Origin: a virus
Lineage: Duplodnaviria > Heunggongvirae > Uroviricota > Caudoviricetes
Reading direction: 5' to 3' (one strand)
DNA length: 23,312 nt
Virus record (IMG/VR): IMGVR_UViG_2541047726_000007
In this document: one piece after another, positions 4,228 to 14,006 of the stretch
Layout: each line of letters opens with the position of its first letter
How positions within the stretch are numbered: position 1 is the stretch's first letter
Position numbers and translations under genes: made by a program
Notes under the pieces: generated by a model
The model's input: only the letters and a program-made list of their open reading frames with translations
What the model was told of the DNA's origin: nothing
The model's database searches: none

Positions 4228-5375
<1,148 letters not shown>

Positions 5376-8758: not shown

Positions 8759-8891
8759 TTTTTGGGACTCCTGGCTGATTAAGTATGTCGATAAGGCGTT
8801 TCCATCCGTCACGTAATTTACGGGTGATTCGTTCAAGTAAAGATTCGGAAGGGCAGCCAGCAACAGGCCACCCTGCAATGGCATATTGCAT
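8727..8891 (-). CDS. cIII: CIII (FtsH inhibitor that stabilises CII), 54 aa
   Basis: Hand translation gives [54 protein letters not shown]; TAAGGAG site upstream; below the ORF-track cut-off. Confidence 0.75.
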   Translation of the reverse strand: MQYAIAGWPVAGCPSESLLERITRKLRDGWKRLIDILNQPGVPKNGSNNYGYPD

Positions 8892-8963
8892 GGTGTGCTC
8901 CTTATTTATACATAACGAAAAACGCCTCGAGTGAAGCGTAATTGGTATGCGGTAACGCCGCGC

Positions 8964-9928: not shown

Positions 9929-10510
9929 ATGAACAACTCATGGTGGCAGGAACTAATGCATTTTTTCCTGCAAGGAATGACACTTAAACAGTTGATTCAT
10001 ATGCTAATCATCCTGATCATATTGATTATTGTTATGCCGGTAAGCGTAAAAGAATGGATAAACCTGCATAGTCCAGAAATCCTTCCTCATTACTGGATGT
10101 ATTACATCCTGTTGTTTTGCGTTAGCTATGTGCTTAACGGCGTTGTTAATTCCGCTTATCACGCTGTGACTGAAAGAATTGAGGTATTCGCTGCTCAGAA
10201 GCGCAAATCTAAAGAAGAAAAATATGTGCAAGATTTGTTTGATTCGTTAACTCTTGGAGAAAGAGCGTATTTGGCATTCGCTGTAGCCGCTAATAACCAG
10301 CTACAAACGGAAAAGGGCGCTCATGAATCAATTTCATTGCTCAAAAAAGGACTCCTCGTTCGAAGGCCTCCTGCTGTTGGATATCCTGATACCGACCGTT
10401 TCGTTATCCCTGAAAGCTATAGACATGAGTGCTACATTAGGTTTGCCGGGAAGGCAGACAGCCTTATGGATGAACTTATCGCTCAGGATAAGCATGGCAA
10501 AAACAAGTAA
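9929..10510 (+). CDS. sieB: Superinfection exclusion protein B (membrane protein)
   Basis: 193-aa product with hydrophobic N-terminal helices, lambda SieB-like; transcribed opposite to the pL operon as in lambda. Confidence 0.85.
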   Translation: MNNSWWQELMHFFLQGMTLKQLIHMLIILIILIIVMPVSVKEWINLHSPEILPHYWMYYILLFCVSYVLNGVVNSAYHAVTERIEVFAAQKRKSKEEKYVQDLFDSLTLGERAYLAFAVAANNQLQTEKGAHESISLLKKGLLVRRPPAVGYPDTDRFVIPESYRHECYIRFAGKADSLMDELIAQDKHGKNK

Positions 10511-10526
10511 TTAGCAAATGAATTTA

Positions 10527-10799
10527 TCATCTCGCCGTCAGTTGTTTTGATTTCCGGTAGCCTGCCGCGTAAAGAGCTACGTTCGGAAGACAAGTTGAAC
10601 CTTCATATTTTCTGGTCAACGTTGTCAGAGTTATCACTTCTGCTCTCATTGCTGGTTTGAGCTTGCATTGCAAGACCACTCGTGAAGGGGTTGGCCTGTG
10701 TAGCTTGTCGGAGCTGATCGCCTCCTGACTTTGCAGATTTGCGCGACGAGCTCTACGGCGAGAAGCTGCGGTGCCTTTAAATTCTGTTTTTCTGGACAT
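10527..10799 (-). CDS. N: N-like transcription antiterminator (90 aa) with an arginine-rich motif, not lambda N
   Basis: N-terminal GTAASRRRARRA motif; first gene downstream of pL/nutL; GGAGG site before the ATG at 10797-10799. Confidence 0.7.
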   Translation of the reverse strand: MSRKTEFKGTAASRRRARRANLQSQEAISSDKLHRPTPSRVVLQCKLKPAMRAEVITLTTLTRKYEGSTCLPNVALYAAGYRKSKQLTAR

Positions 10800-10824
10800 G
10801 GATTCCTCCCGAATAAACTTTGGC

Positions 10825-10871
10825 GATGCAATCTCGAAGCTCCTCCTGAGACGGTTGCTTCGGCATTGCAT
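10825..10871 (-). promoter_or_regulatory. Long imperfect hairpin in the N leader (candidate RNase III site / translational control element)
   Basis: 15-nt arms GATGCAATCTCGAAG and CTTCGGCATTGCATC (2 mismatches) separated by 17 nt, 26 nt upstream of the N start. Confidence 0.4.
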
Positions 10872-10897
10872 CCCACAGCTTATGTGGTTGGGTGATC

Positions 10898-10942
10898 TGG
10901 CTTTTCAGCCACGTAGTCGAGAGTCGACGTTGTTTAAAGAGC
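10898..10942 (-). promoter_or_regulatory. nutL candidate: boxA (GCTCTTTAA), spacer hairpin, boxB (UGGCU-GAAA-AGCCA)
   Basis: boxA-like nonamer and a GAAA-loop hairpin on the minus strand between pL and N; same architecture as the nutR candidate. Confidence 0.5.
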
Positions 10943-10984
10943 CTGCCAGTCTGTTCCATTTGGCTTCCAGCGTCCTGCTGACGG

Positions 10985-11235: not shown

Positions 11236-11988
11236 TTATGCTGCAAGTCTCTTAACCCAAGTCTCTCTTTTGGAGAATGGTAGAACTTGGCTTGATTCAT
11301 GGAAGAGTAAGGAGAGTTGTTGCATTTGATCACCAATTGCTTCGCTGTCTATAACAACAAATCTGTTGTTATACTCCTCACTTGAAGCTTTAAGATCAAT
11401 TAGTTTCCCAAGCAATGAGTAAGCACTATTCCAGCTTCCTCCGTGTTTCACGCTTGATGTAAAAACGTATTTAGGTATGTCGGTTTTTATTGTTACAGGG
11501 ACGGTAATTTGATGTCCACTCAAGCCATATACGTTTTCACGAAGAGAAAGTGCGTCTCTAAGCTCTGTGTGATATAGATAATCAATAACCATACTTTCAA
11601 ACTTTTCAGCTTGAACTGGCTGATACCAGTCTAACGACAAAGTTGATGCGAGTATACCAGCTCTAATTATGTTCGATGTAATCGCACCGACATCCTTTTC
11701 TGTTGCCCAAGCAATGATTTCTCCTCGAGCATTGAGTTCTGCGCCTTCTTTAAGCAGTAATTGTCGTATCTCATCAAGTCGTTTTTTGGTAAGCGAGATC
11801 CCTCTTGCCTCCATATTCATTAAGGCATCGCATCTGTCACTAACTAAATACCTACCATTGACTTCACGGATAAAGGCACCGACATGCTCTCCATCATCAC
11901 AGTAAGTGAATGGACTGATAATTCTCAAGGTCTTGCCTATTGGATGGCATTCGAAACCTAGTTGTGAGATCACTGTTGAGCACATCAT
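11236..11988 (-). CDS. Hypothetical protein, rex-position cassette gene B (250 aa)
   Basis: Long ORF whose ATG overlaps the gene A stop (ATGA); AT-rich; no transmembrane segments evident. Confidence 0.7.
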   Translation of the reverse strand: MMCSTVISQLGFECHPIGKTLRIISPFTYCDDGEHVGAFIREVNGRYLVSDRCDALMNMEARGISLTKKRLDEIRQLLLKEGAELNARGEIIAWATEKDVGAITSNIIRAGILASTLSLDWYQPVQAEKFESMVIDYLYHTELRDALSLRENVYGLSGHQITVPVTIKTDIPKYVFTSSVKHGGSWNSAYSLLGKLIDLKASSEEYNNRFVVIDSEAIGDQMQQLSLLFHESSQVLPFSKRETWVKRLAA

Positions 11989-12542
11989 ATTCCAAACCCC
12001 ATTTGCCCCGACTCATCTTCAAGCGGTAAAGGTATTCTCCCAGAGTAAGTTATGTTCAGATGTTTACAGAAGTAATTCCAATACCCTACCAGGTCATCTG
12101 GGTTTATGTCATCTTCGATTGGAAACGCTATTCTATCACTATAGTATCCAGCTTCTTCATAGTATACATGGTAGTGAGCACCGTAAATGATATCTTGGTA
12201 CTTCGGATGATCGACCTTGTAACTATTCGTGTGTTTGTCAAAGTGATAGGTATCTACCGCGAAAACCCTCTTGTTATGATAGAAAGCAATAATATTTATT
12301 TTAGGGTAAGAAATCGGGTCATCAGGTTCTGAATCCTGATCTGGTTTCCATTTCAGTTCAAACTTTAGCCCTTGTATAGGTATACAATCCTCATCCAAGG
12401 GGATGATATGGGCTTGTAGCCACATATCAGAGCGACTTGGTTTCTGTTTCCATTTAACGCCAGAAAAGTTAACTATTTTTTTACAATAAAGTACTTTATC
12501 AACTTCTACTTGGCTTGGCTGATAATCATCTATTTTTGCCAA
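11985..12542 (-). CDS. Hypothetical protein, rex-position cassette gene A (185 aa; TTG start, uncertain)
   Basis: ORF 39 nt downstream of cI; AT-rich; Tyr/His/Asp-rich, no recognisable motif. Confidence 0.6.
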   Translation of the reverse strand: MAKIDDYQPSQVEVDKVLYCKKIVNFSGVKWKQKPSRSDMWLQAHIIPLDEDCIPIQGLKFELKWKPDQDSEPDDPISYPKINIIAFYHNKRVFAVDTYHFDKHTNSYKVDHPKYQDIIYGAHYHVYYEEAGYYSDRIAFPIEDDINPDDLVGYWNYFCKHLNITYSGRIPLPLEDESGQMGFGI

Positions 12543-12581: not shown

Positions 12582-13235
12582 TCACCCAAACGTCTCTTCA
12601 GGCCATTGGCTGGCGATAACTTTCCCCACAACGGAACAACTCTCATTGCATGGGATCATTGGGTATTGTGGGTTTAGTGGCTGTAGAAACACCTGACCGC
12701 TATCCCTGATCAGTTTCTTGAAGGTAAATTCATCACCACCAAGTCTGGCTATGCAGAAATCGCCGGGCTCAACAGCTTGCTCAGGGTCAACCAGAATTAA
12801 CATCCCGTCAGGAAAGCTGGGTTTGGAACCTGTTGGTGCGGTCATTGAGTTACCTTCAACCTCAAGCCAGAATGCAGAGTCACTGGCTTTTTTGGTTGTG
12901 CTTACCAATCTCTCCGCATCGCCTTTGGTAAAGGTTCTGAGTTCTGGAGAGAACATCCCAGCCTGAACATGAGAAAAAACAGGGTACTCATATTGTTTTT
13001 TAACTGGGGCCGATGAGTATTCGCCAACAGGTGAAAATGTCCCGTCGTGGTTGAATGATATGTTATCAATACCAAGGTATTTAAACACCACACCAATATC
13101 ACTAAGAGATGGATGACGAGATCCGCGCAACCAGTGTCCAATCCCACCCTGCGTCATACCTAGCTCTTCGGCTAACTTCTCTTGAGTTATGCCGAGCTCT
13201 TTCATTCTGGATCTAGCCAGTTCATACCATTTCAT
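12582..13235 (-). CDS. cI: CI repressor, chimeric: lambda-type C-terminal domain with a non-lambda HTH N-terminal domain
   Basis: C-terminal about 130 aa match remembered lambda cI ([13 protein letters not shown]...[10 protein letters not shown]); the N-terminus differs; start taken as ATG 13233-13235 (an ATG two codons upstream is also possible). Confidence 0.85.
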
Positions 13236-13352
13236 TTTCATGTCCTTATTATTACGCTCTGTACTGGAACCATCCATGCACAATGTGTATTTTTACTTGT
13301 ATTCGCAAAGTACATATTGTATTTTTTTATTCGTGTTTACTATGGAGGGCAT
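13236..13352. promoter_or_regulatory. Divergent pRM/pR operator-promoter region (oR candidate)
   Basis: AT-rich 117-bp spacer between divergent cI and cro with several imperfect palindromes containing GTAC/TGTA half-sites. Confidence 0.5.
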
Positions 13353-13568
13353 ATGAGCAACCTACGAAAATATCGAGAGTCACTGAATATCTCTCAAACA
13401 ACACTTGCTAAGGCAGTTGGATGCACACAGGGAGCTATCGGACATTGGGAATCTGGTCGTCGCTTCCCAGACCTTAAAACATGCCGTGCTCTTGTTGCGT
13501 GCCTAAACAAGTTAGGCGCAAAAGTCAGTCTTGATGACGTGTTCCCGCCGGAACACAAAGCCGCTTAA
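13353..13568 (+). CDS. cro: Cro-like HTH repressor (71 aa), non-lambda
   Basis: HTH motif (QTTLAKAVGCTQGAIGHWESG); GGAGGG site before the ATG; divergent from cI. Confidence 0.8.
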   Translation: MSNLRKYRESLNISQTTLAKAVGCTQGAIGHWESGRRFPDLKTCRALVACLNKLGAKVSLDDVFPPEHKAA

Positions 13569-13578
13569 TAAGCGGATC

Positions 13579-13624
13579 CGCTCTTTGTAACAACGGACAT
13601 TCGTCCTACGTCGCTGAAAAGCGA
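13579..13624 (+). promoter_or_regulatory. nutR candidate: boxA (CGCTCTTTG), spacer hairpin, boxB (UCGCU-GAAA-AGCGA)
   Basis: Located just after the cro stop; mirrors the nutL candidate. Confidence 0.5.
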
Positions 13625-13709
13625 GTTCCAAGATATCTGACCAACTAAGGCCATATGCGTTTCCACGCATACCTTTCAACTAACTATTCACTATTGGAAA
13701 TCTTAAGAA

Positions 13710-14006
13710 ATGGAAAGAACAAGTTACAGCAAACTATCACAGCGTGACGTTGATCGCGCAGAAACAGATTTACTTATCAATCTGTCAGCTATTACCCAGC
13801 GCGGTCTGGCAAAGATGATTGGCTGTCATGAATCGAAGATAAGCAGAACGGACTGGAGATTTATTGCTTCGGTCTTGTGTGCTTTCGGAATGGCATCAGA
13901 CATCAGTCCGATTAGCAGGGCTTTTAAGTATGCGCTTGATGGACTCACCAATAAAAAACGCCCGGCGGCAACCGAGCGTTCTGAACAAATCCAGATGGAA
14001 TTCTGA
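13710..14006 (+). CDS. cII: CII transcriptional activator, chimeric: lambda-like C-terminus, divergent N-terminus
   Basis: The C-terminal TNKKRPAATERSEQIQMEF matches lambda CII. Confidence 0.75.
   Translation: MERTSYSKLSQRDVDRAETDLLINLSAITQRGLAKMIGCHESKISRTDWRFIASVLCAFGMASDISPISRAFKYALDGLTNKKRPAATERSEQIQMEF

What the first reader, a model, noticed from the sequence alone, without database searches (positions are those of the whole stretch)
10898..10942. Paired nutL and nutR sites with an extra small hairpin between boxA and boxB
Both candidate nut sites share the same architecture: a boxA-like nonamer, a spacer of about 22-24 nt holding a short palindrome (GTCGActcTCGAC in nutL; GGACattcGTCC in nutR at 13592-13603), then a 5-bp stem with a GAAA loop as boxB (nutR spans 13579-13624). 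Lambda has about 8 nt between boxA and boxB and a 5-nt loop. The N protein is non-lambda, so this looks like a co-evolved N/nut pair.
Basis: seen in the sequence. Interest (0 to 1): 0.55.

Follow-up and report, generated by a model that had tools for sequence, protein, structure and literature searches.

The report
Known Stx-phage-type nutL/nutR antitermination sites
These are the two N-utilisation (nut) RNA sites of a lambdoid phage of the VT2-Sakai/H-19B group; the extra hairpin between boxA and boxB is real and conserved, but the sites are already annotated in GenBank and the hairpin has been described for phage H-19B, so the finding is correct but ordinary.

Summary
nutL (10898-10942, minus strand) and nutR (13579-13624, plus strand) share one layout: consensus boxA, ACAAC, a short hairpin, UACG, then a 5-bp boxB stem with a GAAA loop. 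The composite motif occurs only at these two places in the window, with none expected by chance. A covariance model finds exactly two such sites per phage in this N clade and none in the P22-type, HK620-like, phi21-like or Vibrio-phage loci tested. The spacer hairpin is under selection as RNA: at least five unrelated stems occupy the same anchored position, every cell pairs, 4 of 5 pairs show changes on both sides, and G.U intermediates occur. It is not new. The window's nutL and the core of its nutR are identical to sites annotated in VT2-Sakai, and the nutR spacer hairpin is identical to that of H-19B nutR, where N+NusA/NusG and Rho footprints have been mapped. One modest addition: across 229 loci the boxB loop size tracks the N arginine-rich motif without exception. 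RRR(A/E)(R/H)RA.LQ goes with 4-nt GNRA loops. RRRERLK... goes with 5-nt GACAA-type loops. I found no experimental test of the tetraloop class.

The parts
10898..10942 (-). nutL, complete site (boxA - structured spacer - boxB)
   Evidence: CM R1 hit at 68.4 bits; identical to the annotated VT2-Sakai nutL.
10929..10942 (-). nutL boxA GCUCUUUAA plus the conserved ACAAC flank; resembles rrn boxA plus the first four spacer bases (ugcucuuuaacaa)
   Evidence: Sequence; rrn and lambda boxA sequences from PMC2724277.
10916..10928 (-). nutL spacer hairpin GUCGA-CUC-UCGAC
   Evidence: In relatives with the same N only the loop varies: CUC, ACAC, ACUC, AUC, GCAC. Covariation.
10912..10915 (-). Invariant UACG linker between the spacer hairpin and boxB (nutL)
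   Evidence: Of 440 genuine clade sites in the scan, 439 have TACG and one has CACG.
10898..10911 (-). nutL boxB: stem UGGCU/AGCCA with GNRA tetraloop GAAA (10903-10906)
13579..13624 (+). nutR, complete site
   Evidence: CM R1 hit at 38.3 bits. The boxA-to-boxB core is identical to the annotated VT2-Sakai nutR.
13579..13594 (+). nutR boxA CGCUCUUUG plus the UAACAAC flank
   Evidence: Sequence.
13595..13606 (+). nutR spacer hairpin GGAC-AUUC-GUCC, identical to that of H-19B and 933W nutR
13607..13610 (+). Invariant UACG linker (nutR)
13611..13624 (+). nutR boxB: stem UCGCU/AGCGA with tetraloop GAAA (13616-13619). H-19B has the same stem with the pentaloop GACAA.
10527..10799 (-). N gene, 90 aa, MSRKTEFKGTAASRRRARRANLQ...; the cognate antiterminator with an N-terminal arginine-rich motif
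   Evidence: PF25694, E 1.5e-32; 98.9% identical to VT2-Sakai N; 42% identical to H-19B N.
10805..10891 (-). Long stem in the N leader between nutL and the N ribosome-binding site, resembling the RNase III site of the lambda N leader (that comparison is from my own knowledge)
   Evidence: MFE -39.3 kcal/mol, z -3.82, 0 of 200 shuffles fold as well.
13350..13568 (+). cro (HTH_3); nutR starts 11 nt after its stop codon
13654..13679 (+). tR1 region, mapped from the VT2-Sakai annotation 'putative rho dependent terminator for pR transcript'
   Evidence: Annotation. The alignment ends at window 13660, so the rest of the interval is extrapolated by offset from the VT2-Sakai coordinates.
13710..14006 (+). 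cII (PF05269), the first gene after nutR and tR1

Best explanation
These are the nutL and nutR sites of a lambdoid phage whose N protein belongs to the H-19B/933W/HK97 - VT2-Sakai - epsilon34 clade. Transcripts from pL and pR carry the sites. The arginine-rich N-terminus of N binds the boxB hairpin, which here has a true 4-nt GNRA loop (GAAA) closed by U-A. The consensus boxA should recruit NusB/S10. The spacer between them is a short conserved hairpin flanked by invariant ACAAY and UACG. By homology with H-19B nutR, this spacer is the region protected by N+NusA/NusG, and it overlaps where Rho first loads for tR1. The assembled complex then reads through tR1, the leftward terminators and later ones. 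Shown here: the positions, the identity to annotated sites, covariation of both helices, and the perfect match of ARM type to loop size. Inferred: actual N binding, dependence on Nus factors, and what the spacer hairpin does mechanistically.
For: The composite motif occurs only at the two expected positions. The flanking genes are N, cI, cro and cII. nutL and the nutR core are identical to the sites annotated in VT2-Sakai. 933W has equivalent annotated sites. From the spacer hairpin to the end of the aligned tR1-proximal region, H-19B nutR differs from the window by three positions, including the extra C in the boxB loop; boxA also differs. [quoted passage not shown] CM R1 finds exactly two sites per phage of the clade and none in the P22-type, HK620-like, phi21-like or Vibrio-phage loci. 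In the pair counts all 276 cells pair, 4 of 5 spacer pairs and 2 of 5 boxB pairs change on both sides, and the covariation score is 0.401 against 0.080 for shuffles (0 of 500 reach it); slid controls reach at most 0.062. At least five unrelated spacer stems occupy the same position: GUCGA, GGAC, GAUUC, GGUGA and GGCC. The series GGAC/GUCC, GGGC/GUCC, GGGC/GCCC passes through a G.U pair that works only on the transcribed strand. No clade site lacks the hairpin. ARM type and loop size match in all 229 loci.
Against: No experiment exists for this N/nut pair, and I found none in the searchable literature for the tetraloop class. The alignment used for pair counting was fitted to the model's structure, which favours pairing. 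The number of independent stem types is small (five to seven), and many sequences are close relatives. With flanks included, the thermodynamic optimum of nutL is not the two-hairpin fold: boxA pairs with the loop and 3' arm of boxB (-14.1 against -12.0 kcal/mol). boxB would then need co-transcriptional folding or protein binding to form. The role I assign to the spacer hairpin is transferred from H-19B footprints, and those do not separate the hairpin from its single-stranded flanks.
Confidence: 0.88

Rival explanations
1. The spacer hairpin mainly controls Rho rather than docking NusA. By folding part of the C-rich nut/rut region, or by causing a pause, it would set how fast Rho loads at tR1 and at the leftward terminators, and so give N time to bind boxB. 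This overlaps with the main explanation and does not exclude it.
For: In H-19B the nut and rut sites overlap, and Rho alone protects the spacer region with a footprint of about 22 nt (PMC3526286). The window's nutR spacer is identical to H-19B's. The region annotated as a Rho-dependent terminator follows nutR within about 30 nt.
Against: nutL carries the same kind of hairpin with a different sequence, so nothing about it is specific to tR1. Rho binds single-stranded C-rich RNA, and a hairpin would hide such RNA. I have no pause or termination data for any hairpin mutant.
Confidence: 0.25
2. The functional unit is a switch between two folds. boxA pairs with the loop and 3' arm of boxB, enclosing the spacer hairpin, until N (on boxB) or NusB/S10 (on boxA) captures one partner and frees the other. 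Assembly would then be cooperative. The spacer hairpin would be the fixed hinge of the switch.
For: The predicted optimum of both window sites with flanks is this alternative fold: nutL -14.1 against -12.0 kcal/mol, with boxB pair probability about 0.03; nutR -11.9 against -11.7, about 0.5. The spacer hairpin persists in both folds with probability 0.88-0.97. The title of Neely & Friedman 2000 mentions 'alternative NUT RNA structures' for H-19B (cited; the paper is not held).
Against: Of 79 distinct clade sites, 58 have the two-hairpin fold as optimum. About half of the tetraloop-class sites have no boxA at all. The outermost alternative pair is not maintained in 8 of 29 distinct sites. The pairing may just reflect the partial complementarity of the boxA consensus GCUCUUU to AAAAGC. 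I found no covariation specific to this fold.
Confidence: 0.15
3. The palindromes act at the DNA level as a protein-binding site, a cruciform or a restriction-site relic (the nutL palindrome contains GTCGAC, the SalI recognition sequence, from my own knowledge), or they are neutral insertions with no function.
For: They are perfect short DNA palindromes. The terminator scan even picks up the nutL palindrome on the opposite strand.
Against: The sequence is not conserved but the pairing is: at least five unrelated stems with changes on both sides. G.U intermediates pair only on the transcribed strand. Variation among close relatives is confined to the loop. The position is fixed to the nucleotide relative to boxB in 439 of 440 sites.
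Confidence: 0.02

Closest known systems
nutL/nutR of Stx2 phage VT2-Sakai (GenBank AP000422, 'putative N-utilization leftward/rightward')
   Same: nutL is 100% identical over the whole site and its flanks. The nutR core from boxA to boxB is identical. N is 98.9% identical. Phages ev207, ev017 and PhiR57_1 are 100% identical over N and nutL.
   Different: Nothing in the nut sites themselves differs. The operator and immunity region next to pL differs, since the match to VT2-Sakai stops at base 574 of 601. The VT2-Sakai annotation is a prediction and has not been tested.
nutR/nutL of phage H-19B (and 933W, HK97), studied experimentally by Neely & Friedman 2000 and the Sen laboratory
   Same: The layout is the same: ACAAY, spacer hairpin, UACG, then a 5-bp boxB. 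The nutR spacer hairpin GGACAUUCGUCC, the UACG linker and the boxB stem UCGCU/AGCGA are identical. The N proteins are homologous at 42% identity and share the C-terminus.
   Different: The H-19B boxB loop is the pentaloop GACAA, as in P22, and not GAAA. The H-19B ARM is RSRRRERLKAKALANG, against SRRRARRANLQ here. The H-19B boxA is degenerate: CGCUAUUUU in nutR and none recognisable in nutL, whereas the window has consensus boxA at both sites. The H-19B nutL spacer stem is GAUUC/GAAUC.
nut sites of phage lambda
   Same: The order boxA - spacer - boxB is the same. So are the positions, after pL and after cro. boxB is a 5-bp stem closed by U-A with a GNRA-type loop, and the cognate N has an arginine-rich motif.
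   Different: The lambda spacer is 8-9 nt and single-stranded (PMC2724277). The lambda loops are 5 nt (GAAAA, GAAGA) and fold as a GNRA tetraloop with one base extruded (PMC12027372). Here the spacer is 22-23 nt with a hairpin and the loop is a true 4-nt GNRA.
Salmonella phage epsilon34 N/nut (Villafane et al. 2008, PMC2629481)
   Same: It belongs to the same tetraloop class: ARM GRRRERRAALQ, boxB CGGCU-GAAA-AGCCG and UCGCU-GAAA-AGCGA, the same spacer hairpins and the same UACG. That paper predicted 'a novel BoxB specificity' from the divergent N-terminus.
   Different: epsilon34 has no recognisable boxA at either site. Its N is 120 aa, against 90 aa here. Its nutL spacer stem is GAUUC/GAAUC.

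Membership tests
Lambdoid N-utilisation (nut) site | One site lies in each early operon: between pL and N, and just downstream of cro before tR1 and cII | tested here: met
   nutL ends 98 nt upstream of the N start codon. nutR starts 11 nt after the cro stop and 86 nt before cII.
Lambdoid N-utilisation (nut) site | boxA element matching CGCUCUU(U)A | tested here: met
   nutL has GCUCUUUAA and nutR has CGCUCUUUG. The references are lambda boxA CGCUCUUA and rrn boxA UGCUCUUUA (PMC2724277).
Lambdoid N-utilisation (nut) site | boxB hairpin 3' of boxA: a 5-bp stem closed by U-A with a GNRA-type loop | tested here: met
   UGGCU-GAAA-AGCCA and UCGCU-GAAA-AGCGA. The boxB helix pairs in every sequence, and 2 of its 5 pairs change on both sides.
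Lambdoid N-utilisation (nut) site | A cognate N protein with an N-terminal arginine-rich motif is encoded downstream of nutL | tested here: met
   PF25694 N_peptide, E 1.5e-32. The ARM is SRRRARRA. ARM type tracks loop type in all 229 loci.
Lambdoid N-utilisation (nut) site | N-dependent read-through of downstream terminators | not testable with these tools
   This needs a reporter or an in vitro transcription assay. It has been shown only for the homologous H-19B nutR (PMC3526286).
H-19B-type nut site (structured spacer) | A hairpin in the boxA-boxB spacer immediately 5' of UACG and boxB | tested here: met
   It is identical to H-19B in nutR. It is conserved and covaries. No clade site lacks it.
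H-19B-type nut site (structured spacer) | boxB pentaloop GACAA recognised by the ARM RSRRRERLKAKALANG | tested here: not met
   The window has a 4-nt GAAA loop and the ARM SRRRARRANLQ. It is therefore a sister specificity class. It works like the H-19B site but is not the same specificity type.
H-19B-type nut site (structured spacer) | [quoted passage not shown] | not testable with these tools
   The window has consensus boxA at both sites, unlike H-19B, so a dependence on NusB/S10 is possible. In the tetraloop class about half of the distinct sites lack boxA.
Lambda-type nut site in the strict sense | A short (8-9 nt) single-stranded spacer and a 5-nt GNRNA loop | tested here: not met
   The spacer is 22-23 nt with a hairpin, and the loop is 4 nt.

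The most novel reading that the evidence does not exclude
The tetraloop class found here, in VT2-Sakai, in epsilon34 and in prophages of Citrobacter, Atlantibacter, Enterobacter, Erwinia and Pantoea may be a separate, orthogonal N-boxB specificity. In it an ARM of the form RRR(A/E)(R/H)RA.LQ would read a canonical 4-nt GNRA loop with no extruded base. That would mean the extruded loop nucleotide of lambda and P22 boxB is not needed to build a NusA-containing antitermination complex. It would also make the structured spacer, with its invariant ACAAY and UACG flanks, an obligatory and still unexplained part of the site for the whole clade.
Probability: 0.5. Interest if true: 0.35.

Novelty: already known. 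Interest (0 to 1): 0.2.

Why it matters
For this window it matters little. The sites are the expected early-antitermination signals of a well-known group of E. coli prophages, and identical sequences are already annotated. N antitermination in Stx phages is upstream of Q and therefore of toxin expression (my own knowledge), so the N/nut specificity classes have some practical relevance. The comparative results here could be useful to people who use N/boxB pairs as RNA-tethering tools or who study how the N-Nus complex assembles. Those results are the strict coupling of ARM type to loop size, the natural GNRA-tetraloop boxB, and the clade-wide covarying spacer hairpin with invariant flanks. They extend known biology and do not change it.

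Tried and rejected
(1) An Rfam scan of the window found no nut family, only the lambda cIII thermoregulator. Rfam appears to have no nut/boxB model, so this says nothing either way.

(2) A MAFFT alignment of 17 nut sites (A2) did not put the different spacer stems in register. I could not use it for pair counting and replaced it with a CM-derived alignment.

(3) The first IMG/VR scan with the window's N returned only proteins 98-100% identical. It was useful only for showing that nutL variation is confined to the hairpin loop. Diversity came from the phage collection and from GTDB genomes.

(4) Neely & Friedman 2000 and the paper I tried under PMC93574 (my recollection of the id for Plunkett 1999, the 933W genome) are not held. 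My account of the H-19B spacer therefore rests on PMC3526286 and on the title of the 2000 paper.

(5) I tested whether the alternative boxA:boxB pairing is conserved. It is not supported across the clade.

(6) I considered a DNA-level palindrome or protein-binding site and rejected it on the covariation and the G.U intermediates.

(7) I considered whether the NusA-critical AUU motif of the lambda spacers (PMC2724277) is presented in the hairpin loop. It is present in the nutR loop (AUUC) but not in the nutL loops (CUC, ACAC, CGGA and others), so this is not a general explanation.

(8) The Vibrio phage locus L094 has a different nut layout and a different N-terminus, so I did not pursue it.

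Full report
**Observation**

The window is the immunity and early-regulation region of a lambdoid phage. N is on the minus strand at 10527-10799 (PF25694 N_peptide, E 1.5e-32). cI is at 12582-13283 on the minus strand, cro at 13350-13568 and cII at 13710-14006.

Read on its transcribed (minus) strand, the first site is GCTCTTTAAACAAC-GTCGACTCTCGAC-TACG-TGGCTGAAAAGCCA, from 10942 down to 10898. The second, on the plus strand, is CGCTCTTTGTAACAAC-GGACATTCGTCC-TACG-TCGCTGAAAAGCGA at 13579-13624.

The composite pattern GCTCTTT-N(12-40)-CTGAAAAG occurs exactly twice in the window, at these sites. None is expected from shuffles. The only slip is that the nutR palindrome lies at 13595-13606, not 13592-13603.

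Folded on their own, the 45-46-nt sites give the two hairpins for nutL (-11.4 kcal/mol, z -2.56). For nutR they give an alternative fold.

**Identity**

The N/nutL region is 100% identical to phages ev207, ev017 and PhiR57_1, and about 94% identical to many Stx phages.

The VT2-Sakai GenBank record annotates a 'putative N-utilization leftward' site that is base-for-base identical to the window's nutL. It also annotates a 'putative N-utilization rightward' site whose boxA-to-boxB core is identical to the window's nutR. That site is followed by a 'putative rho dependent terminator for pR transcript'. Phage 933W carries equivalent annotated nutL and nutR sites.

On the right side, homology to Stx phages with other cro genes begins at window position 13578, one base before the first base of nutR. 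This fits nutR being a module boundary.

**The experimentally studied relative**

H-19B nutR reads CGCUAUUUUCACAAU-GGACAUUCGUCC-UACG-UCGCUGACAAAGCGA. From the spacer hairpin to the end of the aligned tR1-proximal region it differs from the window at three positions, one of which is an extra C in the boxB loop. Its boxA is also degenerate.

For that site, PMC3526286 reports the following:
[quoted passage not shown] - protection of the spacer by Rho alone, and overlapping nut and rut sites;
- efficient antitermination in vitro with only NusA and NusG;
- loss of function in ARM mutants (R15, R18).

[quoted passage not shown] The extra hairpin is thus a described feature of this phage group.

**Comparative test of the spacer hairpin**

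I collected nut sites from three sources:
- a panel of phages;
- divergent prophages in Citrobacter, Atlantibacter, Enterobacter, Erwinia and Pantoea from GTDB genomes;
- about 230 IMG/VR loci.

Every N of the M(S/T)R(K/R)TxFxG clade has both nut sites built as ACAAY - hairpin - UACG - boxB. At least five unrelated stems occupy the same anchored position: GUCGA/UCGAC, GGAC/GUCC, GAUUC/GAAUC, GGUGA/UCACC and GGCC/GGCC. Among close relatives of the window, nutL varies only in the hairpin loop.

A covariance model built from two stem types found exactly two sites per clade phage. It found none in the P22-type, HK620-like (ECP1, mEpX2), phi21-like (VT1-Sakai) or Vibrio-phage loci.

On the resulting alignment all 276 cells pair. 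Four of the 5 spacer pairs and 2 of the 5 boxB pairs change on both sides. The covariation score is 0.401 against 0.080 for shuffles, and none of 500 shuffles reaches it. Slid controls reach at most 0.062. The caveat is that this alignment was fitted to the model.

A relaxed scan that did not require a hairpin found 439 TACG-boxB sites, all with a hairpin. The one genuine variant, with CACG, also has it.

The series GGAC/GUCC, then GGGC/GUCC, then GGGC/GCCC passes through a G.U pair that works only on the transcribed strand. The hairpin is therefore selected as RNA.

**Coupling of N and boxB**

N proteins whose ARM continues RRRERLK(A/V)(K/Q)A... have 5-nt loops (GACAA or GUCAA) at both sites. 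This group includes H-19B, 933W, an HK97-length contig, Oslo and sal5.

N proteins with RRR(A/E)(R/H)RA.LQ have 4-nt GNRA loops (GAAA or GCAA) at both sites. This group includes the window, VT2-Sakai, POCJ13, epsilon34, S137 and all the divergent prophages.

There is no mixed case among 229 loci, although nutR sits in a mosaic region. One pair is especially informative: SSAARRRERLKAQAIAHG goes with GACAA, and SSAARRRERRAHLQSEAA goes with GCAA. This places the determinant just after RRRER.

The epsilon34 genome paper had already guessed 'a novel BoxB specificity' from the N-terminus (PMC2629481). I found no paper that describes the tetraloop or tests this class.

**boxA**

The window has consensus boxA at both sites, resembling rrn boxA plus ACAA (PMC2724277). 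H-19B has a degenerate boxA. About half of the distinct tetraloop-class sites have none.

**Alternative fold**

With flanks included, the predicted optimum of both window sites pairs boxA with the loop and 3' arm of boxB, around the spacer hairpin:

| Site | Alternative fold (kcal/mol) | Two-hairpin fold (kcal/mol) | boxB pair probability |
|---|---|---|---|
| nutL | -14.1 | -12.0 | about 0.03 |
| nutR | -11.9 | -11.7 | about 0.5 |

The spacer hairpin persists in both folds with probability 0.88-0.97. This alternative is not conserved across the clade: 58 of 79 distinct sites prefer two hairpins, and many have no boxA. I therefore treat it as a lead and not as a finding.

**Mechanism**

The most likely mechanism is standard N antitermination. 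N binds boxB through its ARM. NusB/S10 bind boxA. The structured spacer, with its invariant flanks, serves as the NusA-contact region and overlaps the Rho-loading region, as footprinted in H-19B. I have shown the anatomy, the conservation and the coupling. Binding and function are inferred.

**Verdict**

The observation and the interpretation are correct, but the feature is already annotated and its architecture has been described. The only modest addition is the clade-wide evidence for the spacer hairpin and the rule linking ARM type to loop size. Interest is low (0.2).

Noticed in passing
window 11236-11988 (-) and 11985-12542 (-): Two overlapping ORFs of 250 and 185 aa lie directly downstream of cI, in the position that rexAB occupies in lambda (that comparison is from my own knowledge). 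They match the PADLOC candidate defence system PDC-M24: PDC-M24B at E 4.7e-10 and PDC-M24A at E 4.8e-4. In Pfam they match DUF1828 and, below its threshold, DUF6978. A terminator-like hairpin follows at 11232-11211. This may be a prophage-encoded defence module expressed with the repressor.
   Followed up: partly
window 10805-10891 (-): The N leader between nutL and the N ribosome-binding site folds into a long, nearly perfect stem (-39.3 kcal/mol, z -3.82, 0 of 200 shuffles fold as well). It resembles the RNase III processing site in the lambda N leader (my own knowledge). Comparable CCAAAG...CUUUGGG and ...CACCAAAGUU elements are visible in the N leaders of all panel phages.
   Followed up: partly
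window 8846-8904 (-): Rfam Lambda_thermo, the cIII thermoregulator element, matches at 88.5 bits over the full model.
   Followed up: no
window 10894-10947 (-) and 13575-13627 (+): With flanks included, the predicted optimum fold of both nut sites pairs boxA (GCUCUUU) with the loop and 3' arm of boxB (AAAAGC), enclosing the spacer hairpin. For nutL this fold is 2.1 kcal/mol better than the two-hairpin fold. It may relate to the 'alternative NUT RNA structures' in the title of the H-19B paper. It is not conserved across the clade.
   Followed up: partly
all clade nut sites, e.g. window 10912-10915 and 10929-10933 (-); 13590-13594 and 13607-13610 (+): The flanks of the spacer hairpin are almost invariant across genera: ACAAY on the 5' side and UACG on the 3' side, with 439 of 440 sites carrying TACG. 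The hairpin stem itself changes completely. These flanks are probably the bases actually recognised, perhaps by NusA or as an extended boxA, but nothing here shows by what.
   Followed up: partly
window 9929-10510 (+): A sieB superinfection-exclusion gene (PF14163, E 9.1e-22) lies convergent with N, immediately downstream of it. P22, VT1-Sakai and Oslo have the same arrangement.
   Followed up: no
L094 (Vibrio phage IKEMa6-1), about 300 nt upstream of position 4801: This phage has an N-like C-terminus (CLPDVAIYQAGHRK). Its leader carries a consensus boxA (CGCTCTTTAACAA) followed after a short spacer by a different hairpin (CCTACCCGATGCGGGTAGG), with no spacer hairpin and no UACG. It may represent a further N/boxB specificity type outside the Enterobacterales.
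   Followed up: no
window 10527-10871 (-): The longest ORF over N starts at an upstream ATG and gives 114 aa. The Stx1-phage record AP005153 annotates N that way, whereas VT2-Sakai annotates the 90-aa form. The 90-aa start (MSRKTEF...) has the GGGAGG ribosome-binding site and aligns with all homologues, so the long form looks like a mis-annotation.
   Followed up: partly
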